Positions 35,573-49,884 of a stretch of DNA of 64,000 bases are shown in pieces. Within the stretch, counting starts at the first letter, position 1. Every line of letters starts with the position of its first letter. A model generated the notes under the pieces. That model was not told the DNA's origin. It saw nothing but the letters and a program-made list of their open reading frames with translations, and did not search any database. Both the position numbers and the translations under genes were made by a program. The stretch is from Candidatus Nomurabacteria bacterium (GTDB taxonomy: Bacteria > Patescibacteriota > Minisyncoccia > Phycocordibacterales > UBA9973). The stretch covers positions 1,433 through 65,432 of the forward strand of contig CALRFQ010000002.1 in the NCBI GenBank assembly GCA_943356675.1. Reading direction: 5' to 3'.

Positions 35573-36196
35573 ATGCAAACCATCATCACCATACTCATCA
35601 TTGTCATACTGTGGTCCCTCTGGGGCTACTTCACTTCACGCGTCGAGCAAGCCGATTACAAAGTCCTGTCGAAGAATGCCGATTACGAAGTGAGAGAGTA
35701 CTCCGAGCATATCGTGGCAGAGACCGCGGTGTCTTCTTCATCATTTCGTGGTTCTATGAATTCTGGTTTCTCTATCGTCGCTGGATACATTTTCGGCGCC
35801 AATACGAAAAGTGCAAAGATCGCCATGACGGCACCCGTCGTCGAGCAGGCGAGATCCTCCGAGAAGATCGCCATGACTGCGCCTGTCACAGTAAATACGA
35901 AAGGTGACTCTAGGGTCATAGCTTTCGGCATGCCTCGCTCATACACCATGGACACTCTTCCTACTCCCACAGACCCTCGTGTGAAGCTCCGCTTAGTACC
36001 CAAGGCCAAGGTGGCTGTGCTCCGTTTCTCTTGGTCCCGCTCCGAATCCCGCGTGGAGAAGATGAAGGCCAAGCTCGCAGAGTACTTAAAGCGTGATGGC
36101 GTGGAGACCGTCGGCATTCCTAGCTACGCCGGCTACAATGCTCCTTGGACCCCACCTTGGATGAACAGGAATGAAATTTTAGTAGAAATAAAATAA
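35573..36196 (+). CDS. SOUL heme-binding-family protein
   Basis: ADYEVREY start and a duplicated IAMTAPV motif typical of the SOUL/HBP family. GC-rich. Confidence 0.6.
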   Translation: MQTIITILIIVILWSLWGYFTSRVEQADYKVLSKNADYEVREYSEHIVAETAVSSSSFRGSMNSGFSIVAGYIFGANTKSAKIAMTAPVVEQARSSEKIAMTAPVTVNTKGDSRVIAFGMPRSYTMDTLPTPTDPRVKLRLVPKAKVAVLRFSWSRSESRVEKMKAKLAEYLKRDGVETVGIPSYAGYNAPWTPPWMNRNEILVEIK

Positions 36197-36200
36197 TTTT

Positions 36201-36689
36201 ATGAATAAGAAAATGTACATTGCGGGTGGGTGCTTCTGGGGGCTTGAAGACCTTATGCGAAGGGAGATCGGCGTGAAGGATATCACCGCCGGCTACGCCG
36301 GCGGCACCACCCCGAGCCCTACCTATGAGCACCACGGCGACTACGCCGAAGCCATCGAGATAGCCTACGATCCCTCGCAGACTTCCTTCTGGAACCTCCT
36401 CGACTTTTTCTTCCAAATTCACAACCCCACCACACTCAATCAGCAGGGGAACGACATCGGCATCTCATACCGTAGCGCCATTTTCTACCAGGACGAAGAC
36501 GAGCACAAGCAAGCCGAGGACTTTATTAAAATAGTGAATGATTCCCATCGCTGGCCGAACCCCGTCGTCACCACCCTCGAGCCCTTTACCAATTTCTTCC
36601 GCGCCGAGGAATACCACCAAGACTTCCTAGAGAAGAACCCCGGCGGCTACACCTGCCATGCCATCTATTTCGATTCATATTTAAAATAG
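36201..36689 (+). CDS. msrA: peptide methionine sulfoxide reductase MsrA
   Basis: YIAGGCFWGLE catalytic motif. Confidence 0.9.
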   Translation: MNKKMYIAGGCFWGLEDLMRREIGVKDITAGYAGGTTPSPTYEHHGDYAEAIEIAYDPSQTSFWNLLDFFFQIHNPTTLNQQGNDIGISYRSAIFYQDEDEHKQAEDFIKIVNDSHRWPNPVVTTLEPFTNFFRAEEYHQDFLEKNPGGYTCHAIYFDSYLK

Positions 36690-36719
36690 ACTAATCAAAC
36701 TTCGCTCTTCGGAGCGCGT

Positions 36720-36914
36720 CTACTGTAGCTTGTCCGTAGTCTTTTTATCTCTTATATTCTCTTTTTCTGCATGTTCTAGCATTTCTTTCCAATGCTGACC
36801 AACATCAAATCCATATTTGGCTGAAATTTCTTTTTGTTTTAATAGACTCTTTTTAATTCTTTCCATTTTTTCATCTGTGCTCATTTGATTGATTTGTTTT
36901 TTACTTAATTTCAT
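36720..36914 (-). CDS. small hypothetical protein (64 aa)
   Basis: ORF only, lying at the left edge of the AT-rich island. Confidence 0.25.
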   Translation of the reverse strand: MKLSKKQINQMSTDEKMERIKKSLLKQKEISAKYGFDVGQHWKEMLEHAEKENIRDKKTTDKLQ

Positions 36915-37261
36915 ATTTGTATTATTTTTAAAATTTAATAATACTCTTTGGGCTCAAATCTGCTGACTGGGCAAAGAAAAAAGCGACTAAGAGTTTTGAT
37001 CAAGATTCGACAATCTTAATGAAATCTCCCAATCGCCTTTGGCAATCAGTCATGATAAGGTATTTGGATCCTCGCAGATTTCCCAATTCACCTACCCATT
37101 CAAGGGAACCTCACATGGTCTACAGTCTGGCAGACTCAGTGTTACCTTTAAGGGCAACAATTATATTATATAACATATATCATTTACTGACAAGTTTTTT
37201 GTCGCCATATGAGTTTCTCATATTAATGATATACTTATGAAAGTTACCTACATACAAGATT

Positions 37262-39712
37262 ATGGAATTTTCAAAAAGTGATTATCTTTTAAAAATAAAA
37301 GGAATTATAATAAACGATTTAGGAATCAATGCAAATGAATATATTTCATGTTTTTTTGATGAAAATGAACCATATATTGAAATTAAAACTAGTTATGTTA
37401 AATATAAAATTATAATTGATAGGAGTGATTGTGGTTCTAGATATACAACAGAAAATACTAAAATAATAGTTATAGGGTCTAGTTTTTTAGAGCAAGAAGA
37501 TAAGGTTAAGTTTTTCCTAAGAAGGCAGTTTATAGCAGATGAAGAGCTTTTTAACTTATATCTTAAAAGAGGTAAAGAAATTAATCCGCATGAGGCACAA
37601 CATGTTGCCCTTTTAAATTTAGAAAACACTAGAAAAAGTGGGAACAATAAGGCATTAGCAGTACTTGCAACAGGTCTAGGTAAAACGATTTTATCAGCTT
37701 TGGATGTAAAAAATACAAAATCAGATAAAGTATTATTCATTGTTCATATCGATGAAATTTTAAAACAAACAAAGGAATCGTTTGAAATGGTTATGCCAGA
37801 AAGAAAAAATGATATGGGTTTTTTTACTGGAAAACAAAAGGATCGTGATAAAAAAATATTATTTGCCTCGATCCAGACTATTGGTAGGCAGAAACACATT
37901 GAATCATTTTCTCCGAATCATTTTGATTATATAATTATAGATGAAACCCATCACACTGCAGCACCCACATATAAAAAAATTTTTGACTATTTTCACCCTA
38001 ATTTCTTTCTTGGTTTAACAGCAACACCTGATAGAATGGATAAAAAAGATATATTGAATTTCTATGATCATAATGTTGTATTTGAAATGAATCAAGAAGA
38101 TGCAATAGAGCAAGGATATTTAACCCCATTTCAGTATTTGGGATTTAAGGATAATATTAACTATTCAAATATATTTTTTAACGGTTTCAAGTATGATATT
38201 AAGGATTTAAACAAGCATCTACTTATAGATGCACGTGATAATGAAATTATAAAAAAATATAAAGAATCAGCTGGTAATAGAAAAACTATAGGTTTTTGTG
38301 CCTCAATAGAACATGCAGAGAGGTGTGCTAAGAAGTTCAACGAGGCAGGGATAGATGCAATCTCAATTCATTCTAAAAGTGTTGGTCTAGATGGTTTTAA
38401 TGAAAAAGGAGTAAAGACTTTAATAAATCATTTCAGGCAAAATAAATGCCAGATTGTTTTTGTTGTAGATATGTTTAATGAAGGAATTGATATTCCTGAT
38501 GTTTCTTGTTTGTTATTTTTACGACCAACAGAGTCAAAGACAGTTTTTGTTCAACATATGGGTCGTGGTTTAAGAATATCTCCAGGCAAGGAAAATGTTT
38601 TAATTTTAGATTTTATTGGAAACTATCGTACTGCTAATTTAATTATTGAAGGATTGAATTTAAAAAATAATATTAGAGATTTAAAGAAATCAAAAAGGGA
38701 AGGCAAGGATGTATTTGCTTATAGTATTAATAATTGTGAAATAATTTTTGAATCTGAAGTGATAGATATTTTTAAAAATAATGAAGCTGCATATTCAGAA
38801 GAAATAAAAAATGAATTTATCTCAAAAGAGTGGATCGAATATTCTACTTATTTAAATAAATGGACAAAAGATAATTTATATTGGAAAAGGGGACAGCAAA
38901 ATCAATACTTTGAAGTTAACCTTGAGGCTATTAGGGTAATAAAAGATAATCCTAAAATAACAGAAAAAGATTTTATCGAAAAAATACAAGAAATTGTAAA
39001 AGAGAAATACCCCGGCAAAAATATGACTGCTGGATTTCGTGGATTAATGCTTTCAAAAATTAGTGGCTTTATTTCTGCTAATACACCGCTTAAACCAATG
39101 GAACCATTTATGAAAATTTGTGAAAAAACAAAAGATTTTAAAAACATTGAATTATACCGAGATGTTCTTACTTCACAGTTAGAAAAGATATTATATTGGA
39201 ATCCAATTTATGGCTCATATAATAAATACGTTGATTTATCTCATAGGGTGTCTTTTAATGACTTTAAAGTATATCCATTCTTCTTCATCTATGATGTATT
39301 GATTAGTCTTATTGATGACTATGGAGAAACAGAGCCATTTGTTAGTAGATTTGAATTTAATACTTTTATGGCTATCACTAAAGAGCATTCAGAGTCTAAA
39401 GATGTGCTAGAAAGGATCCTTCGTTTTAGGAAAGATGAGGAAATTCATCAAACCAAAAAATTATTAGACAAAAATAACAACATCGACCCGCGTTTTTATG
39501 GGATTGTGCATTATAATAAATATATTGAAAAAACAAAAATAGGTATAAAAATCAAGGACAAATACGTGGACGAGGTAAGAGAAAAAGTAAAAAAATTTAA
39601 AGAGCTTTACAATTCAGGTAAACTTATTTTCTATAAGGAAAATGACCAAGAATTATATGAAAATATGCTATACTCTAATCAAGATTTAATAAATTATTGC
39701 ACAGAGAAATAG
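37262..39712 (+). CDS. SF2 helicase (ResIII/DEAD-like core) with about 110-aa N-terminal and about 340-aa C-terminal domains of unknown function
   Basis: Motif I ATGLGKT, motif II IIDETHH, motif III LGLTATPDR, motif V VVDMFNEGIDIPDV and motif VI QHMGRGLR. The C-terminal extension may be DUF3427-like; I cannot verify that without a search. Confidence 0.75.
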   Translation: MEFSKSDYLLKIKGIIINDLGINANEYISCFFDENEPYIEIKTSYVKYKIIIDRSDCGSRYTTENTKIIVIGSSFLEQEDKVKFFLRRQFIADEELFNLYLKRGKEINPHEAQHVALLNLENTRKSGNNKALAVLATGLGKTILSALDVKNTKSDKVLFIVHIDEILKQTKESFEMVMPERKNDMGFFTGKQKDRDKKILFASIQTIGRQKHIESFSPNHFDYIIIDETHHTAAPTYKKIFDYFHPNFFLGLTATPDRMDKKDILNFYDHNVVFEMNQEDAIEQGYLTPFQYLGFKDNINYSNIFFNGFKYDIKDLNKHLLIDARDNEIIKKYKESAGNRKTIGFCASIEHAERCAKKFNEAGIDAISIHSKSVGLDGFNEKGVKTLINHFRQNKCQIVFVVDMFNEGIDIPDVSCLLFLRPTESKTVFVQHMGRGLRISPGKENVLILDFIGNYRTANLIIEGLNLKNNIRDLKKSKREGKDVFAYSINNCEIIFESEVIDIFKNNEAAYSEEIKNEFISKEWIEYSTYLNKWTKDNLYWKRGQQNQYFEVNLEAIRVIKDNPKITEKDFIEKIQEIVKEKYPGKNMTAGFRGLMLSKISGFISANTPLKPMEPFMKICEKTKDFKNIELYRDVLTSQLEKILYWNPIYGSYNKYVDLSHRVSFNDFKVYPFFFIYDVLISLIDDYGETEPFVSRFEFNTFMAITKEHSESKDVLERILRFRKDEEIHQTKKLLDKNNNIDPRFYGIVHYNKYIEKTKIGIKIKDKYVDEVREKVKKFKELYNSGKLIFYKENDQELYENMLYSNQDLINYCTEK

Positions 39713-39740
39713 ATAATTTATATATCTTAAATTTATTTTC

Positions 39741-41330
39741 ATGAAAAAAATCATTAAAAACATATCAGCTGAATCGCATCCTTCTCATTATATGATGCAT
39801 AAATATTGGGGACGAAAGCCACACAATGTTGTGAGTGATTATATTTTAAATTACACAAAACCAGGGGATGTGGTCCTTGACCCATTTATGGGTAGTGGTG
39901 TTGTTGTGATTGAATCCCTAAAGCATAATCGTAAAGCAATCGGGATAGACCTAAACCCGATGGCTTGTTTTATTACGGAAAACACAATCAATAAAGTTGA
40001 TCTTGAAGACTTTGAAAAAACTTTTTTTCAGATCTACGAGCATAATTACAAAAAATTTATCGATTTATATGATACGAAATGTCCAAAGTGTGAACATCAT
40101 GTACCATTTGAAAACTCAATCTGGGACCTCGACGAATTTGTAAAAGTTAGAGCAATTTGTCCTATACACGGTAAATTTATAAAAAAAACAGATTCATACG
40201 ATCAAAAAGTTTTAAAAAAATCCTTAGAAACTTTCCATAAACTCGACAAAGAAAATAAAATATTCTATCCAAAAGATGAGATTCTAAAATTCGTAAAAAG
40301 AAATGGTAAGAGTAGGCTCGATGAGTTTTTTTCAGAGAGAGCGCTTTCTGTGCTTGGCTCAATAATAAAAGATATAGATACTGTTGAAAATCCTGAGACA
40401 AAGAGTCTTCTTCTTTTATGTTTTACTTCTATGTTGCCAAACGTATCAAAAATGATTCCTGGCAATACTGAGTCTGTGAACGGTAAATCAGGATGGGTAA
40501 TAAGCAAACTATGGGCTCCAAAAGTGCACACTGAAAAGAATGTTTTTAATAGTTTCAAACACAGATTTACAAAAGTTAAAAAAGGAAAACAAGAATTAGT
40601 TGGAGTTTTTGAGTCAAAGAACGCTAAAATATTAAATATTGACGCAACAAATCTTAGCGCAGTTAAATCTGAATCAGTAGATTATATTTTTACTGACCCT
40701 CCTTATGGAGACAGTATTGCTTATTTTGGACTCAGTATGTTTTGGAATGGATGGCTTAAAAACAAAGTCAATTATGAAAGCGAGATTATATATGACCCAT
40801 ATCGTAATAAAAAATACGAGGATTATTCTTCACGAATGAAAAAAGTATACTCCGAATTATTCAGGGTTTTGAAGGATGAAAAATATCTTTCTTTCACTTT
40901 CCATAATAGAAACTTAAATATCTGGAAAGCAGTAATGGATGCTGTTACTGGTGGTGGGTTTCATCTTGTGAATTTGGTCTATCAAGAGCAGGCTGTTGCG
41001 TCAGGGACACAAGGCTTAAACCGAAATAACACCCTGCGTGGAGACTTTGTATACAACTTCACTAAGAATACAAAAATAAAAACTATCGATAAGATATATG
41101 ACCATATGGATAGTAAAAAAGAGATCGTAAAAAAAGTTCAGTTGTGGATACAAAAAAATGATGGTTTTATAACCTCGGATTCTTTATACGAGAAACTTAT
41201 TCCATTTATTGTTGAAAAAAATTTGTACAGCGACGAAGATGGACAGGTCATGAACATTGAAGGCTTACTCAAGCAGAGTTTTAATTATAAGCAACTCCAC
41301 ACAGAAGAATATGGCTGGCAAGAAAAATAA
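39741..41330 (+). CDS. DNA amino-methyltransferase (N6-adenine or N4-cytosine) with internal Cys4 zinc-ribbon
   Basis: N-terminal HPSHYMMHKYWGRKP (motif X-like) and DPFMGSGVV (motif I, FxGxG). TDPPYGD (motif IV) lies about 270 aa downstream. CPKCEHH...CPIHG sits in the intervening target-recognition region. Confidence 0.75.
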   Translation: MKKIIKNISAESHPSHYMMHKYWGRKPHNVVSDYILNYTKPGDVVLDPFMGSGVVVIESLKHNRKAIGIDLNPMACFITENTINKVDLEDFEKTFFQIYEHNYKKFIDLYDTKCPKCEHHVPFENSIWDLDEFVKVRAICPIHGKFIKKTDSYDQKVLKKSLETFHKLDKENKIFYPKDEILKFVKRNGKSRLDEFFSERALSVLGSIIKDIDTVENPETKSLLLLCFTSMLPNVSKMIPGNTESVNGKSGWVISKLWAPKVHTEKNVFNSFKHRFTKVKKGKQELVGVFESKNAKILNIDATNLSAVKSESVDYIFTDPPYGDSIAYFGLSMFWNGWLKNKVNYESEIIYDPYRNKKYEDYSSRMKKVYSELFRVLKDEKYLSFTFHNRNLNIWKAVMDAVTGGGFHLVNLVYQEQAVASGTQGLNRNNTLRGDFVYNFTKNTKIKTIDKIYDHMDSKKEIVKKVQLWIQKNDGFITSDSLYEKLIPFIVEKNLYSDEDGQVMNIEGLLKQSFNYKQLHTEEYGWQEK

Positions 41331-42435
41331 ACTAAAAATTATAGACCTATTCGCGGGGGTGGGAGGCATCTCATCTGGCTTTAAAAAGGCTGGTTTTAAT
41401 GTTGTGTCAGCGAACGAGTATAAATTTGAGATTGCGAACACTTATATTAAAAATCATCCAGGTACAAAGATGATTGTCGAGGATATAACGAAAGTGAAGT
41501 CAAAGGATTTGCTTAACGGAGAGCATAATATTGATGTGATTGTTGGTGGTCCACCATGCCAAGGGTTCAGTATGGCTGGTAGGCGTATACGAGGAGGAGG
41601 GGGTGCATTCCTAAAGGACCCTCGCAATGAACTCTTTAAAGAATTTATACGGATAGTAAAGGAGATTAAGCCAAAGGTATTTGTAATGGAAAATGTAGCA
41701 GCAATGCTTAATATACACGGTGGTGCTGTTCGAAATGAGATAATCAAGAAATTTAAGGAAATAGGATATGAGACAAAAGTTCATGTTCTTCTTGCAGCAG
41801 AATACGGAGTACCTCAGATGAGAAAGCGTGCCGTATTCATTGGAAACAGAATAGGAGTAGACCCTGAAGAATTCTTCCCAGAAAAAACTCACGGTCCCAA
41901 GAATGCAAAACCATATGTAACCGTGGCCGAAACCATTCTTGACTTACCGAAAGTGCTATCAGGAGAAGGAGAGTTTGAATCAGAATACGGTCCGGTTAAA
42001 GCACTTTCTGAGTATCAACAGGAAAGACGTGGAAAGAGCGAAAAATTATACAACCATCAAGCTACTCACCACGATCCACGCATTGTCGAATTACTCAAAA
42101 ATATCAAGGAAGGAGAGGGTAGAACAAGCTTACCGAAGGAGCTACAGACGAAATCGGTGCATAGTGGCGCGTTTGGTAGAATGAATAGAAACAAGCCCGC
42201 ATATACGATCACAACGCGTTTTGACACCCCTTCCGTTGGTCGTGTAACTCATCCATCACAGCACCGGGCTTTAACTCCACGAGAGGCTGCGCGAATCCAG
42301 TCCTTCGATGATGATTTTGTATTTTATGGTAGCAAGAGTTCCGTTGGGATACAGATAGGAAATTCTGTACCTCCATTATTAGCCTATGCGATTGCTCAAA
42401 AAATTTTAAAAGTTTTAAATAAAAATCATGATTAA
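41314..42435 (+). CDS. DNA (cytosine-5)-methyltransferase
   Basis: Motif I IDLFAGVGG, motif IV GGPPCQGFS, motif VI ENV, and C-terminal QIGNSVPP. The start at MAGKKNKLKIIDLFAG overlaps the upstream gene's end (coupled). Confidence 0.85.
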   Translation, partial: AGKKNKLKIIDLFAGVGGISSGFKKAGFNVVSANEYKFEIANTYIKNHPGTKMIVEDITKVKSKDLLNGEHNIDVIVGGPPCQGFSMAGRRIRGGGGAFLKDPRNELFKEFIRIVKEIKPKVFVMENVAAMLNIHGGAVRNEIIKKFKEIGYETKVHVLLAAEYGVPQMRKRAVFIGNRIGVDPEEFFPEKTHGPKNAKPYVTVAETILDLPKVLSGEGEFESEYGPVKALSEYQQERRGKSEKLYNHQATHHDPRIVELLKNIKEGEGRTSLPKELQTKSVHSGAFGRMNRNKPAYTITTRFDTPSVGRVTHPSQHRALTPREAARIQSFDDDFVFYGSKSSVGIQIGNSVPPLLAYAIAQKILKVLNKNHD

Positions 42436-43780
42436 TGACTATAAAAAATATTTAGAAGGGAAAGGCACTAAAAACTTTTGGAAAAAAGCAAAGCAAAAGG
42501 AATACACTAGAGATGTTGTAAATAAGATTTACAAGGAATTGACGTCTGGTTTTAGTAAATTAACAACTCGTAGCAGCATTACTTTACGATACTTAGGTTT
42601 AATAATTAATCTAGGCGGAGACAAGCTTCAAATCTCAAATGCGGGAGATACTTTTCTAAAATCATTATACAAACAAAAAATTCTTGACGAGCAGGTCATG
42701 AAAGTTTATCTAGATTGCCCTGAATTAAATGAAAATCTTTCAATAAAGATTGCGCCAATGGAGGTTCTTTTGAAGATTCTTTATTCGGTAGACTATGTTT
42801 CATTTGAGGAGTATCAATTATTTGTATGTTGGACGAATGATAAGAGCGAAATATCTCTTGTTATTGATTTAATTGAGGAATATAGAAATAGTGATTCAAA
42901 AGAGTCTTATTTAGAAATTTTAAAAGATAAAAGTCAAGAATTAAGTATCGTAGACTTCGCCGATGCTGTAAAAAGATTTTTTAATACACTGATTATTTCT
43001 TCATATATTCAAAAAGAAAGTGACAAGATCATCCCAAAACTTTCAAAGAAAGATATTGAATTAATATTAGAAAGTTTTTCTTTGAGAGATTTTAGCGAGG
43101 AGGGATACTTTGATTATTTAAATACGAATGATGGATGGCAAATTTACACAAGTAATCCTAATTATTTAAGAGTTATAGAGAGTTTAGAGCAAAAAACAAC
43201 GGAAGAACAAGAAGAAATTGTAAATAAAATAACTGGAGGATTAAGTTTTCCAGATCTTTCTAAAGTTAAACCACAGATATTAGAAATGCAGATTGATGAA
43301 AGCATTGAACCAACAATAAAAACAAAAAGGGTAAAAAGTGGTACAGCAAAAAAAATCGATTTTGAATTAAGAGATAGTAATAATCGGGCAGCAGGTGATT
43401 TTGCAGAGAAGATAGTTATCAAACATGAAATCGAAGAATTAAAAGAAACAAACCCTGAGCTTATTAATCGTATTAAACAAGTGTCCTTAGAAGATGATAC
43501 ATTAGGATACGATATCTTATCTTTAACGTCAGATTCATATGAAAAACACATTGAAGTGAAAGCTGTAAGATATAGACCAGCAATAAAATTTAGATTTTTT
43601 ATTTCCGAAAATGAAGTATCGATTGCAAAAGAAGATCCTAATTATTATCTATATATTGTTTTTGATTATTTGTCGGAATCACCTTTTATTTATATGATGC
43701 CTAATCCTTTCATGAATAAAATTCCTGGAGTACAGATCGACCCAATAAAATATCTTGTGACAGTAAAAATTAAAAAATAA
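42428..43780 (+). CDS. hypothetical protein with C-terminal DUF3883-like (PD-(D/E)xK-type) nuclease domain
   Basis: The C-terminal 130 aa carry AAGDFAEKIVIKHE...GYDILSL...IEVKAV...FFISENEVSIAKEDPNYYLYIV, matching my recollection of the DUF3883 core (GYDI...IEVK). The N-terminal 300 aa are unassigned. Its start overlaps the upstream gene's stop. Confidence 0.5.
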   Translation: MINDYKKYLEGKGTKNFWKKAKQKEYTRDVVNKIYKELTSGFSKLTTRSSITLRYLGLIINLGGDKLQISNAGDTFLKSLYKQKILDEQVMKVYLDCPELNENLSIKIAPMEVLLKILYSVDYVSFEEYQLFVCWTNDKSEISLVIDLIEEYRNSDSKESYLEILKDKSQELSIVDFADAVKRFFNTLIISSYIQKESDKIIPKLSKKDIELILESFSLRDFSEEGYFDYLNTNDGWQIYTSNPNYLRVIESLEQKTTEEQEEIVNKITGGLSFPDLSKVKPQILEMQIDESIEPTIKTKRVKSGTAKKIDFELRDSNNRAAGDFAEKIVIKHEIEELKETNPELINRIKQVSLEDDTLGYDILSLTSDSYEKHIEVKAVRYRPAIKFRFFISENEVSIAKEDPNYYLYIVFDYLSESPFIYMMPNPFMNKIPGVQIDPIKYLVTVKIKK

Positions 43781-43785
43781 ATTTT

Positions 43786-44640
43786 ATGGAAAATATAAGT
43801 AAAAAAATAACATTATTTTTAAATGATGGATTACCAAAAGGTATTCGTGAAGTATCTATTGATCAATGGAGTGGTGGGGCAATTTGTGGACCAAGAAATA
43901 AAATTGAGGAAATTTTAAAATTTGAACAGTTGAATGGTCCTTGCGTTTATTTTTTAATTGGTGAATCTGATGAAAGTGACTTATTGAATGTATATGTGGG
44001 TGAAGCTGACTCATTTAGTCAAAGAGTTAAAGATCATTTAAGAAAAAAAGATTGGTGGCAGAACGTGGTGGTCTTTTTTGGTTATAATAATAACCCAAGT
44101 AAGACTGGTATTGAATATCTCGAGTCTTTTATCTACTCAGATTTAATAAATGCAGCTAGGTGTATTTTGGAGAATGGAAATAAGCCCGCTCTGCCCAATA
44201 TATCTAAACATGACATACCTGGACTGCATATATTTTATGAAAATATTAAATTAATTATGCCAGTTATGGGTTTTGATATTTTTGCAGTAGATATAAAAGA
44301 AGATAAAATAAATGAAAGCCAACATATTTTTTGTGAAGGTAAAGGTTCAAAATCTGAAGCTATTCTTTTGGATGATGGGAAGGTTCTTGTTTTAAAAGGT
44401 TCAACTGCAATAAAAGAAAATGCTCCAAGTTTTGAAAAACATAATTATAAAAAAATCAAAGATAATTTATTAAAAATTGATAGACTTGTTGAGGTTGGTG
44501 ATTATCTATCTTTTTCAGAAGATTATCTTTTTGATAGTTTAAGCGCCGCCGCTGCGGTAATATTAGCAAGGTCTGCACAAGGGCCAAAAGAGTGGAAATT
44601 TAAGACTGGTAAGTCTGTTAAAGATTTTATCGAGAATTAA
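43786..44640 (+). CDS. GIY-YIG-like nuclease domain protein with DUF4357-like C-terminal domain
   Basis: N-terminal CVYFLIGESD...LNVYVGEADSFSQRVKDHL resembles a GIY-YIG core. The C-terminal VLVLKGS...SAAAAVILARSAQGPKEWK resembles DUF4357. Confidence 0.5.
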   Translation: MENISKKITLFLNDGLPKGIREVSIDQWSGGAICGPRNKIEEILKFEQLNGPCVYFLIGESDESDLLNVYVGEADSFSQRVKDHLRKKDWWQNVVVFFGYNNNPSKTGIEYLESFIYSDLINAARCILENGNKPALPNISKHDIPGLHIFYENIKLIMPVMGFDIFAVDIKEDKINESQHIFCEGKGSKSEAILLDDGKVLVLKGSTAIKENAPSFEKHNYKKIKDNLLKIDRLVEVGDYLSFSEDYLFDSLSAAAAVILARSAQGPKEWKFKTGKSVKDFIEN

Positions 44641-46221
44641 ATGAAACTTCTAACCAAAACAGATTTTATACTATATCGTGAATGTCCGAATAATGTTTGG
44701 GTTAAAATTCATATGCCCGAGGAGTATTCTAAATTCCCAGTATCAGATTTTGAAAAGTCTTTAGGGGTAATGGGTAACGAGGTTGAAGAGCTTGCTCGGG
44801 GTATGTTCCCAGGTGGAGTCATGGTAGCGGGTCGCGGAGACGAGGCTCGTGAATATACAAAGAAGTTGATTGCCGAGAAAGCTCCTGTGATTTTCCAAGC
44901 TGTGTGTGCTACGGATAAATACTTGGCTGCGGGTGATGTCTTGGTCTGGAATACTGATGCCTGCATGTATGACTTGTATGAAATAAAAATGTCTTCAACT
45001 AAGGAAGAGAATGACGATGAAGAAGAGGAAGGCAAACCAAAAAAGGTAAATAAGAAAAAGGAATTGCAATACGAATACGATATTGCTTTCCAAACCAATG
45101 TATTTTCTATGTGTGGTGTACCATTGAATAATAAATATCTTGTCCGACTAAATAAAGAATATATTAAAATAGGTAATTTGGATTTTTCAGAAAATAAACT
45201 TTTTATCATAGAAGACAAAACTGAGTCAATAAATGAGATGATAGAAAATGTAAAATTTGAAATGGGTCAAGCTTTTGAGTATCTTTCTCACGATGCAATT
45301 CCAAGTGGTCATTGTCCTTGCTATTACAAAGGGCGTAGCTCTCATTGCACAACTTTTACTTTTACGAACCCTGATGTGCCAGCATATAGCGTGCATGATT
45401 TGAATAGAATTGGTAATAGTAAAGCTTATTTGAAAGAACTTCTTGATGCAAATATTTTAACAATAGATAATGTAATTGAGTCTGAAATACCAAAACCTTC
45501 AAAAACAAAAGACGGAAGACCTGGTAAACCAAGAAAGTTGAACCAAGTAGTAATTCACAAGTCTAAAGAGCCCATTATTGATCTTGATGCGATAAAAGCT
45601 GAATTAAATTCTTTAACATTTCCGCTTTATTTCCTGGATTACGAGACGTATCCAACGGCTATACCAGTTTTTGATGGATATCATCCTTATCAGCACATCG
45701 TATTTCAATATTCTATTCATGTACTCAAAGATAAGGATGCCGAATTAGAACATTATGAAATGCTTGTTTTAGAAGGGGATCCAGCGGAGAAAATTGTCGC
45801 CGGTTTGAGGGAAGTCATAGGTGACACAGGTAGTGTAATATCTTGGTACAAAGCATTTGAAAATGCGAGAAATAGAGAACTGTCCCGTTTGGTTCCACTT
45901 CAATTTGAATTCTTGCAAAGTGTGATAAGTAGAACTTATGATCTGATGGATATTGTAGAACAACAGTATTATGTCCATCACGGTTTTAAGGGTAGCTCGT
46001 CGATCAAAAAGGTGCAACCTATTTTAGCCCCAGAATTTTCATACAAGGATTTGGATGTTCAGAGTGGAACTGATGCAATAGAATCGTATCGGCAAATAGC
46101 ACAAGGGGAATTGGATGGTAAAGATTTGGAGGAAAAGAAAAGGCAAATGCTGAAATACTGTGGTTATGATACTGAGATAATGTATATCTTGTGGAAATTT
46201 TTTACAGACTTAGTTAAATAA
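44641..46221 (+). CDS. DUF2779-like protein (Cas4/RecB-like N-terminal nuclease fold with Cys cluster, plus RNase-H-like C-terminal region)
   Basis: FILYRECPNNVW start, Cys cluster HCPCYYKGRSSHC, and central LYFLDYETYPTAIPVFDGYHPYQHIVFQYSIH block. Its start follows the upstream stop with no gap. Confidence 0.55.
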   Translation: MKLLTKTDFILYRECPNNVWVKIHMPEEYSKFPVSDFEKSLGVMGNEVEELARGMFPGGVMVAGRGDEAREYTKKLIAEKAPVIFQAVCATDKYLAAGDVLVWNTDACMYDLYEIKMSSTKEENDDEEEEGKPKKVNKKKELQYEYDIAFQTNVFSMCGVPLNNKYLVRLNKEYIKIGNLDFSENKLFIIEDKTESINEMIENVKFEMGQAFEYLSHDAIPSGHCPCYYKGRSSHCTTFTFTNPDVPAYSVHDLNRIGNSKAYLKELLDANILTIDNVIESEIPKPSKTKDGRPGKPRKLNQVVIHKSKEPIIDLDAIKAELNSLTFPLYFLDYETYPTAIPVFDGYHPYQHIVFQYSIHVLKDKDAELEHYEMLVLEGDPAEKIVAGLREVIGDTGSVISWYKAFENARNRELSRLVPLQFEFLQSVISRTYDLMDIVEQQYYVHHGFKGSSSIKKVQPILAPEFSYKDLDVQSGTDAIESYRQIAQGELDGKDLEEKKRQMLKYCGYDTEIMYILWKFFTDLVK

Positions 46222-46265
46222 CCTATGAATATTCAGTAAAGATGCTATAATAGAAACGTGCGACA

Positions 46266-46395
46266 ATTTAATAGTTTATATTAAGAGTGGTGGTAGAGAA
46301 TTGGCTCAATGACCCCACAGCAACCTGCATTTGTAAGGTGCTAAATCCAACCAGACGCGAAAGCGTCAGGAAAGATAAGTCTTGCGTCTAGTCCA
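46266..46395 (+). promoter_or_regulatory. second SAM-I-like riboswitch copy (core near-identical to the metK leader) with its own TGCTATAAT promoter at about 46243-46251
   Basis: AGAGTGGTGGTAGAGAATTGGCTCAATGACCCCACAGCAACC...GGTGCTAAATCCAACC differs from the metK copy by 1 nt over 42 nt. It is followed by a GACGC-GAAA-GCGTC hairpin. I could not unambiguously pair the P1 3' strand. Confidence 0.45.
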
Positions 46396-46437
46396 CGCTT
46401 GAAAATCTTTCCTCATTATTTGAGGAATTTTTTATTT

Positions 46438-46701
46438 ATGGAAATAATTAAAAAGGAGATAAAGTTGTGCGTAGTTTGTAATAATTTTAGGGGATTGGTT
46501 GAAGAGAGGTATAATGGAGAGGTTCCAGTACATTGTGCTTGTGATCTAGAGAAAGAAAGGATGAATTATGGTAAATGGCGTAGTCCTTGCATGATAAGTC
46601 CTAATGGGGATAAGCTTTGGTGGACGCCTATTTCAGATCATAAAAAGGCCGATGGTAGATGGTATCATGTCGCATACTTCGCCAGACCCGCATTAAATTA
46701 A
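46438..46701 (+). CDS. small Cys-rich hypothetical protein (87 aa) downstream of riboswitch copy 2
   Basis: Start taken at MEIIKKEIK, preceded by GAGGAA 8 nt upstream; the ORF track gives 46399. Contains CVVC...HCAC and WW motifs. No family recognised. Confidence 0.35.
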   Translation: MEIIKKEIKLCVVCNNFRGLVEERYNGEVPVHCACDLEKERMNYGKWRSPCMISPNGDKLWWTPISDHKKADGRWYHVAYFARPALN

Positions 46702-47156
46702 TATCGAATATAAATATTGATTTAGATAAATTACGTAAAAAAATTGAAGAGGAAGAAAAAAATACTAAAAGTAATATAGAAATTTTTAGGGATAATGTTC
46801 ACAAAAAGGAGATTAAAGAAATTTCAGAGAATAAGGAGGTATTTGAAAATGAATTTATAAAGGAGCTTGAGATTGAAATATATTCAAAAGAGCCAACAAG
46901 AAAAGATAAATTTATTTTAAAATTTGCTGAATTAATTAAAAAACTAGGATTATTTAATTTTCTAATTGAATTTGCGTACCTTCACGAAAAAATTGTAAGC
47001 GAAATTCAACATAAATTAAATTTGTCTAAAACTGATTTAAAGGAAAATTTTAAAATTAGGACTATAATATTGCTATGTTTTCAGTTTGTAGTAGCATTAG
47101 TTCTAGTTTTATTAACTAAAATCATTAAAATTATTTTAATTCATTTATTTAAATAA
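46659..47156 (+). CDS. hypothetical protein (165 aa), Lys/Glu-rich with C-terminal TM helix
   Basis: ORF overlapping the previous one by 43 nt. Confidence 0.35.
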   Translation: MVSCRILRQTRIKLISNINIDLDKLRKKIEEEEKNTKSNIEIFRDNVHKKEIKEISENKEVFENEFIKELEIEIYSKEPTRKDKFILKFAELIKKLGLFNFLIEFAYLHEKIVSEIQHKLNLSKTDLKENFKIRTIILLCFQFVVALVLVLLTKIIKIILIHLFK

Positions 47157-47188
47157 GTTTTTGTGATTATCAAGGACCGTCCTTGCTA

Positions 47189-47406
47189 AAGTTGATGACA
47201 AATCTCATGATAGGGAAGACAGGATAGAACGCGATGGTATAGTAGAAGGGATTTTGAAAGACGCTGGGATGCCACTTTTACGATTTGAAAACCATGGATC
47301 ATTTAGCAAAGATGAAATAGAAAAAACATTCTGGTATTCTGCAGAATACCAGAATGTTTTTTATTTATCTATCTATCTATTACTATTCTCTAATTCGCTC
47401 GAATAG
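47189..47406 (+). pseudogene. remnant 3' fragment of a DUF2726-family gene (copy 1)
   Basis: In-frame translation VDDKSHDREDRIERDGIVEGILKDAGMPLLRFENHGSFSKDEIEK matches the conserved DUF2726 C-terminus (SHD...ERD...AGIPLLRF). There is no start codon or N-terminal portion. Confidence 0.4.
47325..47358. repeat. perfect 34-bp palindrome element B (aacattctggtattctgcagaataccagaatgtt), copy 1 of 3, flanked by an A6 and a T6 run
   Basis: Its reverse complement is identical. The A-tract/T-tract flanks make it terminator-like. Other copies at 49114 and 49940. Confidence 0.8.
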
Positions 47407-47416
47407 GCGAATAGTT
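47383..47416. repeat. repeat element C, copy 2
   Basis: Identical to 28818-28851. Confidence 0.8.
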
Positions 47417-47474
47417 CCCGAATATTTTCCAAATAGCCCCACGCCACCAACCCTCACCAAGCACAATACCAAAA

Positions 47475-47512
47475 ATAACATTCTCACATTCTCAAGAATG
47501 TGAGAATGTTAT
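47475..47512. repeat. palindromic repeat element A, copy 2
   Basis: aaaaataacattctcacattctcaagaatgtgagaatgttatttt. Confidence 0.8.
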
Positions 47513-47915
47513 TTTGTTGTAATATTTTCTCAACGTACCCGTCTTTTAATATGTAAGTACTTTGTTATTTTTTATAGGAAATGGCAGAAAAATATCCTCG
47601 GACAAGGATGTAATGCATACCCACATAGCGAAAGGGCTGTAAGGGTAGTTAGGAGGCCTTATTACAAAGGTATTGTTCAAAAGCGGGTGTAGATAAACTG
47701 AACCACCCCCTATTTATTAAACATATATAAAATAAACTGCAGTGCGTTTTGTATATGAAATAGGTCAGACAAGTAGCGTATGTTGGTCGCTAGTCTCTCA
47801 AATATCAAGTGGGCTTGATCTTTGTGCAAAAATAAAAGCTGAAGCAACACCTCTTTTGCGAGTAAAACCTATTCTCGTTTTCCTATAAAAGGTAATAAAA
47901 TGTTATAATATTATT

Positions 47916-48914
47916 ATGAAGAAGAAGGTAATTAAAACTAAAGACAAAAATCAAGGCATGGTTATATATCAGGCTAAATCCGGAGCAATCGAACTTCGCG
48001 GGGATTTTAAGCATGAGACAGTATGGGCAACACAGGATCAAATTGCTGAACTTTTCATGACTACAAAGCAAAACATTAGTCAGCACTTGAAAAGTATTTT
48101 TGAAACAAAAGAATTAAATCAGAATTCAGTTGTAAAGGATTTCTTTACAACTGCTAAAGATGGTAAGCAATATAAGGTTAAATTTTATAATTTAGATGTT
48201 CTACTTTCTGTCGGGTATAGAGTTAATTCCAGAAATGCAACCCAGTTTCGTATTTGGGCCACAAAGACACTGAAAGAGCATTTAGTGAAAGGCTACACTA
48301 TAAACAAGAAAGTCATACTTAAAAATTATGATTCTTTTATTGAGACAGTAAATAGCATTCAGGCACTCCTTCCAGAGCACGTAGTCCTTGATCCGAAAGC
48401 AATTCTTGATTTGGTGAAGGAATATTCGGTCACATGGGCTAAGCTTGATGCTTATGATAAAGACCAATTGTTTACCAAAGGCCAAACAAAGAAAAAAGTA
48501 AAACTTGCCGGACAAGAACTATTGGACGCTATTTCAGAATTGAAAAATGAATTAATGAAGAAAGACGAAGCTACAGATATGTTTGCAATGGAGAGGTTTG
48601 CTGGTGGCGTGGAAGGTATAGTGGGTAACGTGATGCAAGCATTTGGCGGGCAAGATGTGTATCTTACTGTCGAAGAAAAGGCAGCTCACTTACTATATTT
48701 TATGGTAAAGAATCATCCGTTCACAGATGGTAATAAACGTTCGGGTGCTTTTGCGTTTATTTGGTTCCTGCGGAAAGTGGGTGTGCTTGGTGCTAAAAAC
48801 ATAAATCCTTCAGGCCTAACAGCTATCACACTCCTTATTGCTGAAAGCGATCCAAAGCATAAAGACAAAATGGTTGCCCTAGTTGTTGAGCTTTTGCAAG
48901 TAAATAAAAAATAA
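47916..48914 (+). CDS. RhuM-family N-terminal domain fused to Fic/Doc domain (putative AMPylating/phosphorylating toxin-like protein)
   Basis: The N-terminal YNLDVLLSVGYRVNSRNATQFRIWATK is RhuM-like. The C-terminal HPFTDGNKRSG matches the Fic motif HPFx(D/E)GN(G/K)R. TGTTATAAT lies 6 nt before the ATG. Confidence 0.75.
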   Translation: MKKKVIKTKDKNQGMVIYQAKSGAIELRGDFKHETVWATQDQIAELFMTTKQNISQHLKSIFETKELNQNSVVKDFFTTAKDGKQYKVKFYNLDVLLSVGYRVNSRNATQFRIWATKTLKEHLVKGYTINKKVILKNYDSFIETVNSIQALLPEHVVLDPKAILDLVKEYSVTWAKLDAYDKDQLFTKGQTKKKVKLAGQELLDAISELKNELMKKDEATDMFAMERFAGGVEGIVGNVMQAFGGQDVYLTVEEKAAHLLYFMVKNHPFTDGNKRSGAFAFIWFLRKVGVLGAKNINPSGLTAITLLIAESDPKHKDKMVALVVELLQVNKK

Positions 48915-48950
48915 ACTTAATTAAGATAATGTTTAGTAAGGACCGTAGTT

Positions 48951-49195
48951 GCTAAACAGAACGCGATGGTATAGTAGAAGGGATTTTTTAAAGACGCTGG
49001 GATGCCACTTTTACGATTTGAAAACCATGGATCATTTAGCAAAGACGAAATCCAAAAAATAATTTTATCAAAATTATCCTAAACATCTCCCACCACCACC
49101 TCTCCTCAAAATAAACATTCTGGTATTCTGCAGAATACCAGAATGTTTTTTATTTATCTATCCATACATTACTATTCTCTAATTCGCTCGAATAG
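48951..49195 (+). pseudogene. remnant 3' fragment of a DUF2726-family gene (copy 2, internally deleted and frameshifted)
   Basis: About 90% identical to 47213-47330 at the DNA level (...ERDGIVEGI...), but with a 1-nt insertion and a missing upstream segment. Confidence 0.35.
49114..49147. repeat. palindrome element B, copy 2
   Basis: Exact copy. Confidence 0.8.
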
Positions 49196-49205
49196 GCGAA
49201 TAGTT
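49172..49205. repeat. repeat element C, copy 3
   Basis: Exact copy. Confidence 0.8.
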
Positions 49206-49256
49206 ATATAAAAAAGGGCAGAACAAATTTGTTCCACCCTTTTTAAGCCGCAATGG

Positions 49257-49526
49257 TTATTTGAGATCGAATTGACCGGATTTTACTCCTTTAATAAATG
49301 CATCCCACTCATCGTGTTTAAAGTATTGTGTTGCCTTAGTTTCATCTTTCGAATCACGTATAGCTACACCTTCCTCCTTTATTGCAATCATTACACAGGT
49401 TTGCGGATTGTTTTTTGACCATTCCGACTTTTTAAAATCCTGCTCTTCAACATCAAAACCAAAAGGCTTTTTCTTTTTTTTATCTAACACTTCGCTATTC
49501 TCCTTTCTGAAATTTGTGTTATTCAA
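49257..49526 (-). CDS. DUF397-domain protein
   Basis: WSKNNPQTCVMIAIKEEGVAIRDSKDETKATQYFKHDEWDAFIKGVKSGQFDL fits the DUF397 pattern (W.KSS...CVEVA...VAVRDSKD...F...EW.AF..GVK.G.FD). Confidence 0.5.
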   Translation of the reverse strand: MNNTNFRKENSEVLDKKKKKPFGFDVEEQDFKKSEWSKNNPQTCVMIAIKEEGVAIRDSKDETKATQYFKHDEWDAFIKGVKSGQFDLK

Positions 49527-49591
49527 GAACTATTCTTGAAATCATTTTCAATTATTATAATACCATAATATACACAAATTGCAACCCTAAA

Positions 49592-49626
49592 ATAACATTC
49601 TCACATTCTTGAGAATGTGAGAATGT
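49592..49626. repeat. palindromic repeat element A, copy 3 (variant centre)
   Basis: ataacattctcacattcttgagaatgtgagaatgt. Confidence 0.75.
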
Positions 49627-49653
49627 CGTTTTGGACTATTTTGTTTCTAAGCA

Positions 49654-49884
49654 CTATGCCTTTTTGATAAATTCAGTGCGGAGGACAATGCCTTTCATAC
49701 CGTCGATATTGCACTCCACTAGCTCTTCATCATCTGTCAGGCGGATATTCTTGGCCTTGGTGCCTTTCTTGATCACTATTGAGCTACCTTTTATTTTTAA
49801 ATCTTTTATAAGGGTGATACTGTCGCCATGGGCTAGTATCGTGCCGTTCGCATCGCGAACTATTACTTCATCTTCTGTTTCCAT
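49654..49884 (-). CDS. PhnA/YjdC-like C-terminal-domain protein (76 aa)
   Basis: DANGTILAHGDSITLIKDLKIKGSSIVIKKGTKAKNIRLTDDEELVECNIDGMKGIVLRTEFIKK aligns with PhnA-protein C-terminal domains. The ORF-track start 49944 lies inside palindrome B, so the internal Met at 49884 is preferred. Confidence 0.5.
   Translation of the reverse strand: METEDEVIVRDANGTILAHGDSITLIKDLKIKGSSIVIKKGTKAKNIRLTDDEELVECNIDGMKGIVLRTEFIKKA

What the first reader, a model, noticed from the sequence alone, without database searches (positions are those of the whole stretch)
37262..46221. Six-gene AT-rich operon (helicase, two methyltransferases, three nuclease-fold proteins) that does not fit a canonical R-M or known defense-system layout
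Six co-directional genes are packed with overlapping or abutting starts and stops (41330/41314, 42435/42428, 43780/43786, 44640/44641). Their AT content is clearly higher than that of the flanking msrA and housekeeping genes.

Products:
- An SF2 helicase with all core motifs (ATGLGKT, DETHH, TATPDR, QHMGRGLR) plus unassigned N- and C-terminal domains.
- An amino-methyltransferase with a Cys4 ribbon in its TRD.
- A C5-cytosine methyltransferase.
- A 450-aa protein ending in a DUF3883-like PD-(D/E)xK core (GYDI...IEVK).
- A GIY-YIG-like protein with a DUF4357-like tail.
- A DUF2779-like protein with a Cas4/RecB-like Cys cluster.

I see no HsdS, HsdR or Res partner, and none of the hallmark proteins I know from BREX (PglZ), DISARM (DUF1998/PLD), Dnd/Ssp, Gabija, Hachiman or other described systems. 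Two modification enzymes combined with three distinct nuclease folds and a helicase suggest a composite modification-dependent, or modification plus helicase-driven, restriction system that may be uncharacterised. The domain labels DUF3427, DUF3883, DUF4357 and DUF2779 are from memory of motif patterns, not from a search.
Basis: partly seen in the sequence, partly recalled or inferred. Interest (0 to 1): 0.85.

Follow-up and report, generated by a model that had tools for sequence, protein, structure and literature searches.

The report
Helicase-assisted Type IIS restriction cassette, plus passengers
The six genes are not one system: four form a mobile restriction-modification cassette (a BpuJI-like cutter, two protective methylases and a DNA motor protein that has lost its own nuclease), followed by one restriction-associated nuclease gene and one widespread, highly conserved nuclease gene that is syntenic in a related genome.

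Summary
All six ORFs, their tight junctions, their low GC and five of six domain labels hold; DUF3427 does not.

Comparative data split the cluster in three.
1. g1-g4 (37262-43780) is a conserved four-gene cassette. It occurs in several candidate-phyla-radiation (CPR) genomes and in two viral contigs.
2. g5 and g6 are a 2.5-kb block absent from the orthologous cassette in L089. g5 is a GIY-YIG/DUF4357 gene (PADLOC PDC-S14).
3. g6 (DUF2779) is syntenic with a related genome.

g2-g3-g4 is a Type IIS layout that also occurs without the helicase. g4 combines a BspD6I/BpuJI-type recognition domain with a DUF3883 PD-(D/E)xK nuclease, next to two methylases.

g1 has a SauUSI-type SF2 motor. Its C-terminal domain is homologous to g4's recognition domain. 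Its N-terminal Vsr/DUF559-like nuclease has lost the catalytic motif. Relatives with an intact nuclease pair with orthologous Dcm and, in the sequence available, lack a g4-like gene. Every lineage with a dead nuclease carries a trans gene of the form recognition domain plus nuclease (DUF3883 or HNH).

Best reading: an ATP-dependent, methylation-sensitive restriction system with a split motor and nuclease. It is a new variant of a known kind. I found no description of the motor family in the searchable literature. Biochemistry is untested.

The parts
37262..39712 (+). g1: motor subunit. Three domains: a degenerate nuclease-like N-domain, a SauUSI-type SF2 helicase, and a BpuJI/AlwI-like recognition domain.
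   Evidence: Pfam ResIII and Helicase_C. The nearest solved structure is SauUSI 7clg (profile E 9e-101; Foldseek E 3e-26). AlphaFold2 (AF2) model pLDDT 87.8. At least 24 clusters of 64-71% identical orthologues.
37262..37561 (+). g1 N-domain (residues 1-100): decayed Vsr/DUF559/MTES_1575-type PD-(D/E)xK nuclease.
   Evidence: Relatives carry DF..KYAIE(C/T)DG..YH and hit PF18741. The window protein and its 24 closest relatives lack the motif and are about 30 residues shorter. Within this clade the N-domain is 32% identical, against 79% for the helicase and 69% for the C-terminal domain.
37562..38671 (+). g1 SF2 helicase core (residues about 101-470).
   Evidence: Walker A G138/G140/K141/T142, D227/E228/H230/H231, T253/A254 and Q431/G434/R435/G436/R438 are invariant in 60 sequences. 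PADLOC mREase_IV matches the core only, positions 215-573 of 953.
38804..39709 (+). g1 C-terminal domain (residues 515-816): sequence-recognition domain homologous to the N-domain of g4.
   Evidence: hhalign of the g1 family against the g4 family: g1 525-808 aligns with g4 3-237, probability 92.5%, E 4.8e-7. RE_AlwI is above the gathering score in relatives P0006 and P0036. The window's own C-terminal domain gave no Pfam hit. The same domain is found fused to HNH, PLD and AAA_5.
39741..41330 (+). g2: amino-methyltransferase M1 (N6_N4_Mtase; permuted order FxGxG ... TRD with CxxC..CxxH ... DPPY).
   Evidence: Pfam. PADLOC MTase_II and PglXI, both 1e-55. It is fused to the Dcm gene in L169/170 and L177.
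41311..42435 (+). g3: C5-cytosine methyltransferase M2.
   Evidence: Pfam DNA_methylase 7e-78. Orthologues 41-50% identical lie next to every full-length motor relative. Dcm genes near SauUSI-like helicases are only 24-37% identical.
42428..43780 (+). g4: BpuJI-like Type IIS endonuclease. N-terminal recognition domain (42428-43297) plus C-terminal DUF3883/NOV_C PD-(D/E)xK nuclease (43403-43687).
43786..44640 (+). g5: GIY-YIG nuclease with a DUF4357/RAMA-like tail. An R-M-associated accessory, not part of the conserved core.
   Evidence: PADLOC PDC-S14 3e-79, full length. phrog_12629. Absent from most cassettes. A 35% identical orthologue follows NOV_C in L177. Homologues sit between hsdS and hsdR on plasmids.
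44641..46221 (+). g6: DUF2779 protein (Cas4-like PD-(D/E)xK plus predicted 3'-5' exonuclease). A CPR-wide conserved gene; the backbone reading rests on synteny with one related contig (L180).
   Evidence: Pfam DUF2779 1e-35. Hundreds of orthologues at 63-92% identity. Synteny of g6, riboswitch, d1, d2 and YjdM with L180. Domain reading from PMC13621843 and PMC3985635.
46275..46381 (+). SAM riboswitch marking the downstream edge of the cluster. It recurs downstream of orthologous cassettes.
   Evidence: Rfam RF00162, 59.5 bits. Also found after NOV_C in L089 and L086 and before metK in L084. 84.8% DNA identity with the L089 copy.

Best explanation
The core is g1-g4. It is a mobile, partly phage-borne restriction-modification cassette built on a BpuJI-like Type IIS system.

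Proposed mechanism:
- g2 (amino-methylase) and g3 (C5-methylase) each methylate one strand of a short asymmetric site. This step is inferred from the two-methylase Type IIS layout and from the fusion of the two methylases in relatives.
- g4 binds the unmethylated site through its BspD6I/BpuJI-type N-domain and cuts with its DUF3883 PD-(D/E)xK domain. The domain identities are shown; the activity is inferred.
- g1 carries a homologous recognition domain on a SauUSI-type dsDNA motor, but its own nuclease domain is dead. I infer that it binds the same kind of site and uses ATP to translocate or loop DNA. That would deliver or activate the g4 nuclease over long distances, as the H and R subunits do in CglI. 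BpuJI itself needs two sites for full activity.

g5 is a separate nuclease of a family found embedded in or next to R-M loci in the five contexts examined. It may be a back-up or guard. g6 is a widespread, highly conserved DUF2779 nuclease that is syntenic in a related genome and that the cassette happens to sit next to.
For: Cassette conservation. g1-g4 is collinear at 57-88% protein identity in L004, L084/85, L086, L089, L178 and L179, in unrelated flanks. Two of these are IMG/VR viral contigs, and L084/85 lie next to tail, lysis and integrase genes.

Motor. SauUSI is the closest structure. The C-terminal domain is homologous to the g4 N-domain.

Cis-to-trans pattern.
- Nine loci with an intact N-terminal nuclease have orthologous Dcm and no second recognition-nuclease gene in the sequence available: L006, L008, L087, L090-L093, L095 and L096.
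- All dead-nuclease lineages have one. The CPR clade and L177 have DUF3883. L176 and L175 have HNH proteins whose N-domains match the helicase C-terminal-domain HMM at 1e-11 and 7e-9.
- Counting lineages conservatively gives 3/3 against 1/8, hand-calculated one-sided Fisher p about 0.02.

Selection. In the dead-nuclease clade the N-domain is 32% identical, while the helicase (79%) and C-terminal domain (69%) stay conserved with invariant ATPase motifs.
Against: No biochemistry, methylome or expression data exist. Cooperation between g1 and g4 is inferred from gene context only.

One locus (L169) has both an intact cis nuclease and a g4 homologue. So trans and cis nucleases can coexist, and the two proteins could act independently.

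g2-g3-g4 is evidently self-sufficient elsewhere, so g1 may be dispensable.

The g1 C-terminal domain and the g4 N-domain share only about 23% identity. The window's own C-terminal domain does not reach Pfam RE_AlwI on its own. Whether both recognise the same sequence is therefore unknown.

Several 'intact, no partner' loci are short contigs that cannot exclude a partner gene further away.
Confidence: 0.6

Rival explanations
1. Only g2-g3-g4 is the working R-M system. g1 is a decaying remnant of a once autonomous helicase-nuclease restriction enzyme, or an independent element that merely shares the methylases.
For: g2-g3-g4 stands alone in L171-L174. The N-terminal nuclease of g1 has lost its motif and drifts at 32% identity. 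L169 shows that the two restriction-type proteins can coexist with both nucleases intact.
Against: The helicase and C-terminal domain are 79% and 69% identical across at least 18 clade members, with every ATPase motif invariant. The gene is kept full-length in two viral contigs. Loss of the cis nuclease coincides with a trans nuclease in three or four lineages that use two different nuclease folds.
Confidence: 0.17
2. g1 serves modification or maintenance rather than cleavage. It could be an ATP-dependent loader or activator of the methylases, as MtsA/B are for MtsC in MANTIS. Alternatively it could be a Dcm-linked repair helicase descended from a Vsr-like nickase.
For: g1 always neighbours Dcm. 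The ancestral N-domain is Vsr/DUF559-like. ATP-dependent methylation exists in MANTIS.
Against: The C-terminal domain belongs to a restriction-enzyme recognition family that is otherwise fused to HNH, PLD, DUF3883 and McrB-like modules. The methylases work without g1 in L171-L174. A bona fide vsr gene follows the cassette in L173. The family is mobile, linked to phages and integrases.
Confidence: 0.1
3. All six genes form one integrated, uncharacterised defence system.
For: Tight co-directional packing with 0-28-nt spacers or overlaps. A g5 orthologue follows the cassette in L177. DUF2779 genes lie near a related helicase in L087.
Against: g5 and g6 are absent from six orthologous cassettes and form a discrete insertion relative to L089. 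g6 is syntenic with L180 and has hundreds of orthologues in unrelated contexts. g5 homologues sit inside Type I R-M operons.
Confidence: 0.06
4. g1 is a Type IV methyl-directed restriction enzyme. This is what a PADLOC-style annotation (mREase_IV) would call it.
For: PADLOC mREase_IV 1e-81. SauUSI is the closest structure.
Against: The match covers only the motor core, positions 215-573 of 953. No PLD and no DUF3427 domain is present. The C-terminal domain is BpuJI/AlwI-like. The nuclease is dead. Cognate methylases are always adjacent.
Confidence: 0.04

Closest known systems
BpuJI (Type IIS R-M, 5'-CCCGT; PMC1874659), and the AlwI / N.BspD6I family
   Different: One of the two methylases is an amino-methylase rather than a second C5 enzyme. 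The cassette carries an additional SF2 motor gene with a paralogous recognition domain. The recognition sequence and cleavage pattern are unknown.
SauUSI (ATP-dependent Type IV enzyme, PDB 7clg; PMC7913695, bioRxiv 2025.10.16.682607)
   Same: The g1 motor core is its closest solved relative. The overall order nuclease, SF2 motor, target-recognition domain is the same in g1's intact relatives.
   Different: SauUSI has a PLD nuclease and a DUF3427 5mC reader, and it attacks methylated DNA. The g1 family has a Vsr/DUF559-like nuclease (dead in g1) and a Type IIS-type sequence-recognition domain, and it is always paired with methylases. This implies attack on unmethylated DNA.
CglI / NgoAVII (R plus H/N subunits plus an m5C methylase; PMC4267653, PMC5737866, PMC5861437)
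   Same: A site-specific nuclease subunit works with a separate SF2 helicase-like ATPase subunit and a C5 methylase at an asymmetric site. This is the best functional analogy for g4 plus g1 plus g3.
MANTIS / Gao_RL and related DUF499-centred BREX-related systems (bioRxiv 10.64898/2026.09.23.753747)
   Same: A SauUSI-like motor is used against unmethylated asymmetric sites. g2 is distantly related to the PglXI/DUF1156 methylase clade (PADLOC PglXI 1e-55). The g5 tail weakly matches the PADLOC DUF3780 model (4.5e-9).
   Different: There is no DUF499/BrxC-type AAA+ ATPase and no PglZ. g2 scores 51 bits against a cut-off of 1000 for the DUF1156 family. A second (C5) methylase and a BpuJI-like endonuclease are present.

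Membership tests
Type IIS R-M, BpuJI/AlwI-like (g2-g3-g4) | Endonuclease with a separate N-terminal recognition domain of the BpuJI/BspD6I fold | tested here: met
Type IIS R-M, BpuJI/AlwI-like (g2-g3-g4) | Separate catalytic domain with an intact nuclease active site | tested here: met
Type IIS R-M, BpuJI/AlwI-like (g2-g3-g4) | Two adjacent methylases, one per strand of an asymmetric site | tested here: inconclusive
   The two methylase genes are adjacent and overlapping. They are fused into one protein in L169 and L177. Strand-specific methylation and site asymmetry cannot be tested here.
Type IIS R-M, BpuJI/AlwI-like (g2-g3-g4) | Cleavage of unmethylated DNA at or near the site | not testable with these tools
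   Needs enzyme assays.
SauUSI-type Type IV enzyme (PADLOC mREase_IV) for g1 | SauUSI-like SF2 motor | tested here: met
   7clg at E 9e-101 by profile. Foldseek rank 1.
SauUSI-type Type IV enzyme (PADLOC mREase_IV) for g1 | N-terminal PLD nuclease | tested here: not met
   No PLD hit. The N-domain is a decayed Vsr/DUF559/MTES_1575-type domain.
SauUSI-type Type IV enzyme (PADLOC mREase_IV) for g1 | C-terminal DUF3427/SRA-like modified-cytosine reader | tested here: not met
   No DUF3427 hit. The C-terminal domain is homologous to the g4 / RE_AlwI recognition domain.
Type III R-M | Res subunit = helicase with a C-terminal PD-(D/E)xK domain and no DNA-recognition domain; recognition supplied by Mod | tested here: not met
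   g1 has an N-terminal (dead) nuclease-like domain and its own C-terminal recognition domain. PADLOC REase_III gives only 8.7e-6.
BREX / MANTIS (DUF499-centred) / DISARM | Hallmark proteins: PglZ and BrxC; DUF499 MtsA; DrmB (DUF1998) | tested here: not met
   None of the six proteins matches these PADLOC models. The only hits are PglXI-like for g2, DrmMII/DruM-like for g3 and a marginal BrxH hit for g1. Pfam scans of ten neighbouring ORFs (35573-36914, 46399-51412) show none.
PADLOC candidate PDC-S14 (g5) | Full-length match to the family profile | tested here: met
   PDLC04925 3.4e-79, residues 1-281 against profile positions 13-294 of 301. DUF4357 51 bits against a cut-off of 38.4.
DUF2779 / UU173-like (g6) | PF11074 domain, with a Cas4-like N-terminal part | tested here: met
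   PF11074 1.4e-35. NCBIfam UU173_fam gives only 47 bits against a cut-off of 225. The Cas4-like and exonuclease reading is taken from PMC13621843 and PMC3985635 and was not re-tested.

The most novel reading that the evidence does not exclude
The g1 family is an undescribed class of ATP-dependent, methylation-sensitive restriction enzymes. Its plan is a Vsr/DUF559-like nuclease, a SauUSI-type motor and a Type IIS (BpuJI/AlwI-type) sequence-recognition domain, always paired with an orthologous C5 methylase.

In at least three lineages, including this window and CPR phages, the nuclease has moved from cis to trans. It now sits on a small protein that carries a paralogous recognition domain plus DUF3883 or HNH. 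That would create a two-subunit motor/nuclease enzyme in which both subunits read DNA.

The recurrent SAM riboswitch or metK immediately downstream may couple the cassette to SAM supply.
Probability: 0.4. Interest if true: 0.65.

Novelty: new variant of a known kind. Interest (0 to 1): 0.5.

Why it matters
It would add a modular subtype to ATP-dependent restriction: a SauUSI-like motor re-targeted from methylated to unmethylated, sequence-defined sites.

It also offers natural cis and trans versions of the same enzyme. These could be used to ask how translocation activates a nuclease.

It shows that a profile hit to 'Type IV mREase' can be misleading when only the motor core matches.

It documents R-M cassettes carried by phages of CPR bacteria, a group whose defence repertoire is poorly known.

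For the scan itself, the result shows that a tidy six-gene 'operon' can be a composite of a mobile cassette, an accessory gene and a gene that looks like host backbone.

Tried and rejected
- Genome and metagenome scans with the helicase alignment mostly returned SauUSI-like proteins that match only the motor core. They were useful only as a negative control for Dcm identity.
- A PDB profile search with the g4 family found nothing significant. The fold search was needed.
- Foldseek of the full g1 model was dominated by helicases and gave no view of the terminal domains.
- hhalign of the g4 family against the single L176 HNH protein was not significant. An HMM of the helicase C-terminal domain later detected that protein.
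- tblastn of a full-length intact-nuclease relative (P0036) against plasmids found only motor-core matches to DUF3427 proteins. g5 had no relatives in viral contigs.
- Literature searches for MTES_1575, DUF559 with helicase and methylase, and BspD6I/BpuJI with helicase found no description of the g1 family. This is absence in the searchable library only; REBASE could not be consulted.
- Considered and rejected: Type III, BREX, DISARM, MANTIS and CglI membership (hallmarks absent), a Dcm-linked Vsr-type repair role for g1, and tRNA-linked island integration (the only tRNA in the window is at 15383).
- Recognition-site inference by motif avoidance was not attempted, because 64 kb is too little sequence.

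Full report
**Observation.**
The six ORFs exist as described. Spacings are a 28-nt gap, 20- and 8-nt overlaps, and 5- and 0-nt gaps.

GC is 0.32 for the block, against 0.51-0.53 for SOUL and msrA and 0.38 for the window. g3 is less AT-rich (0.41), and the low-GC stretch runs on to about 49.5 kb.

Pfam confirms ResIII/Helicase_C, N6_N4_Mtase, DNA_methylase, NOV_C (DUF3883), DUF4357 and DUF2779. DUF3427 is absent.

The window is identical to an ENA metagenome scaffold. The closest relatives of its genes carry names from the candidate phyla radiation (CPR): Paceibacterota, Nomurabacteria and Saccharibacteria.

**The cluster is composite.**
Orthologues of the helicase at 64-71% identity lie in a collinear four-gene cassette: helicase, N6_N4 methylase, Dcm, NOV_C protein. 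This cassette is found in L004, L005 (cut), L084/85, L086, L089, L178 and L179, in unrelated flanks.
- L178 and L179 are IMG/VR viral contigs.
- L084/85 place the cassette between tail and lysis genes and an integrase.
- None of these copies has g5 or g6.

At the DNA level, homology between the window and L089 runs from 37497 to 43780. It then resumes at 46263-46451, a SAM riboswitch. So g5 and g6 form a 2.48-kb block inserted exactly between the g4 stop and the riboswitch.

Conversely, g6, the riboswitch, the small ORFs d1/d2 and YjdM are syntenic with a related Nomurabacteria contig, L180. g6 has hundreds of orthologues at 63-92% identity in varied contexts. It is a widespread, highly conserved CPR gene. 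On the evidence of one related contig it looks like host backbone, not part of the cassette.

**g2-g3-g4 is a Type IIS system.**
The three genes occur together without any helicase in L171/172 and L173/174. In the latter they are followed by a vsr gene.

D362, E376 and K378 are invariant in 50 homologues. This is the plan described for BpuJI: a site-binding N-domain, an Hjc-like nuclease with D348/E367/K369, a gene flanked by two methylases, and a need for two sites for full activity (PMC1874659).

DUF3883 domains have shown nuclease or nickase activity in YenY4I and HmaA. The two methylases are fused into one protein of about 905 aa in L169/170 and L177. That fusion argues that they act on one target.

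**g1 is a re-targeted SauUSI-type motor.**
Its core is closest to SauUSI (7clg). That explains the PADLOC 'mREase_IV' hit, which covers the motor only.

A profile-profile comparison aligns g1 residues 525-808 with g4 residues 3-237 (probability 92.5%, E 4.8e-7). The C-terminal domains of relatives P0006 and P0036 reach RE_AlwI above the gathering score. The window's own C-terminal domain does not reach Pfam on its own.

A library-wide search with the window's C-terminal domain finds the same domain fused to HNH, PLD and McrB-like AAA_5 modules. It is therefore a portable recognition module of restriction enzymes.

More distant full-length relatives (40-58% identity) carry an intact N-terminal Vsr/DUF559/MTES_1575-type motif, DF..KYAIE(C/T)DG..YH. 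They are followed by a convergent Dcm that is 41-50% identical to g3, and sometimes by a g2-like methylase. These are L006, L008, L087, L090-L093, L095 and L096. Dcm genes near SauUSI-like helicases are only 24-37% identical. This looks like a family of single-chain, ATP-dependent, methylation-sensitive restriction enzymes.

**Cis-to-trans nuclease pattern.**
The window protein and its 24 closest relatives lack the nuclease motif and about 30 residues of that domain. Within this clade the N-domain is 32% identical, against 79% for the helicase and 69% for the C-terminal domain. In intact relatives the N-domain is as conserved as the rest of the protein.

Other motif-less helicases are P0038 (L177), P0039 (L176) and P0026 (L175). 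Each has a trans gene of the form recognition domain plus nuclease:
- L177 has a NOV_C protein.
- L176 and L175 have proteins of 432-435 aa with a C-terminal HNH domain. Their N-domains match the helicase C-terminal-domain HMM at 1e-11 and 7e-9.

Loci with an intact motif show no such gene in the sequence available. The exception is L169, which has both. Counting lineages conservatively gives 3/3 against 1/8, hand-calculated one-sided Fisher p about 0.02. Several of the contigs are short.

I read this as functional partnership: the motor no longer needs its own nuclease because g4 supplies one. The mechanism is inferred by analogy with SauUSI and CglI. It would involve site binding by both proteins, ATP-driven translocation or looping by g1, and cleavage by g4.

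**g5 and g6.**
g5 matches the PADLOC candidate PDC-S14 over its full length and phrog_12629. Homologues at 30-35% identity are named GIY-YIG nucleases. They sit between hsdS and hsdR of Type I operons on Acinetobacter and Rhodococcus plasmids, next to a helicase and a methylase on a Rhodothermus plasmid, and after NOV_C in L177. g5 is thus found embedded in or next to R-M loci in the five contexts examined. It may be a guard or back-up effector; that is inference.

g6 belongs to DUF2779. Others read this family as a Cas4-like nuclease fused to a 3'-5' exonuclease.

**Comparison and novelty.**
Hallmarks of Type III, BREX, DISARM, MANTIS and CglI are absent. The core is a member of the Type IIS BpuJI/AlwI kind. 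The added motor subunit, and the wider family of nuclease-motor-recognition-domain proteins paired with Dcm, were not found in the searchable literature. REBASE could not be checked.

I rate this a new variant of a known kind, interest 0.5.

Noticed in passing
window 46275-46381 (also 28903-29008); L089 16596-16702; L086 16707-16819; L084 19192-19304; L180 3080-3187: A SAM riboswitch lies 54 nt after the g6 stop. Orthologous cassettes in unrelated flanks also have a SAM riboswitch immediately downstream. In L086 and L084 it leads into metK, and in L084/L178 that metK is apparently phage-borne. The recurring link between the R-M cassette and a SAM riboswitch or metK is unexplained. It could reflect SAM supply, insulation against read-through, or a recombination anchor.
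   Followed up: partly
window 46438-46701 and 46659-47156; L180 3242-3868: The riboswitch controls a small Cys-rich ORF (d1, 87 aa; 81.6% identical in L180) and a 165-aa ORF with a hydrophobic tail (d2). Neither has a Pfam or PHROG hit. Together they look like an uncharacterised SAM-regulated operon of these CPR genomes.
   Followed up: partly
window 47327-47356, 49116-49145, 49942-49971 (extended hairpins 47321-47362 and 49113-49148): There are three identical copies of the 30-nt perfect palindrome CATTCTGGTATTCTGCAGAATACCAGAATG, where 0 are expected by chance. They bracket the RhuM-Fic gene (47916-48914) and the DUF397 gene (49257-49526). They may be bidirectional terminators or a REP/MITE-like element marking another variable segment.
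   Followed up: partly
L181 2228-9581; L180 1-2147; window 43786-46221: DUF2779 orthologues (76-82% identical) are each tightly preceded, by 0-5 nt, by a different co-directional gene. Here it is g5. In L181 it is a DUF2130 protein behind an Hhe-like AAA_11/12 plus DUF559 helicase and AbiE. In L180 it is an unknown ORF. The site upstream of DUF2779 may be a defence-gene insertion hotspot, or DUF2779 may partner with variable genes.
   Followed up: partly
L184 5989-6915; L185 5998-6945; L183 6004-6867: Members of the g5 family (GIY-YIG plus DUF4357/RAMA, PADLOC PDC-S14) are embedded between hsdS and hsdR of Type I R-M operons on plasmids. This placement resembles that of PrrC-type guard genes.
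   Followed up: partly
proteins P0187, P0188, P0224, P0228, P0233, P0235, P0238, P0241: The recognition domain of g1 and g4 also occurs fused to PLD, HNH and McrB-like AAA_5 GTPase modules. It is a promiscuous sequence-reading module shared by several restriction architectures.
   Followed up: partly
L087 12549-22559: An intact-nuclease relative (P0036) sits on an integrative/conjugative-type region (TraC-like, TrbC, integrase). Nearby are a convergent operon of DUF2779, a small ORF, an N6_Mtase/Eco57I methylase and Dcm, then a second DUF2779 and GmrSD. This partly repeats the window's gene content in another arrangement.
   Followed up: no
window 47916-48914: A single 332-aa ORF combines an N-terminal RhuM domain with a C-terminal Fic/DOC domain. 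It lies in the low-GC stretch downstream of the cluster.
   Followed up: no
window 50007-50492: An EVE (PUA-like) domain protein gene with GC 0.52 lies just beyond the low-GC region. EVE domains are candidate readers of modified bases. No link to the cassette was examined.
   Followed up: no
window 36720-37261: A 64-aa ORF on the minus strand with no family match, plus a 347-nt intergenic region, precede g1. The region contains a near-consensus minus-strand promoter-like site (37193-37165). The upstream boundary of the cassette and its promoter were not defined.
   Followed up: no
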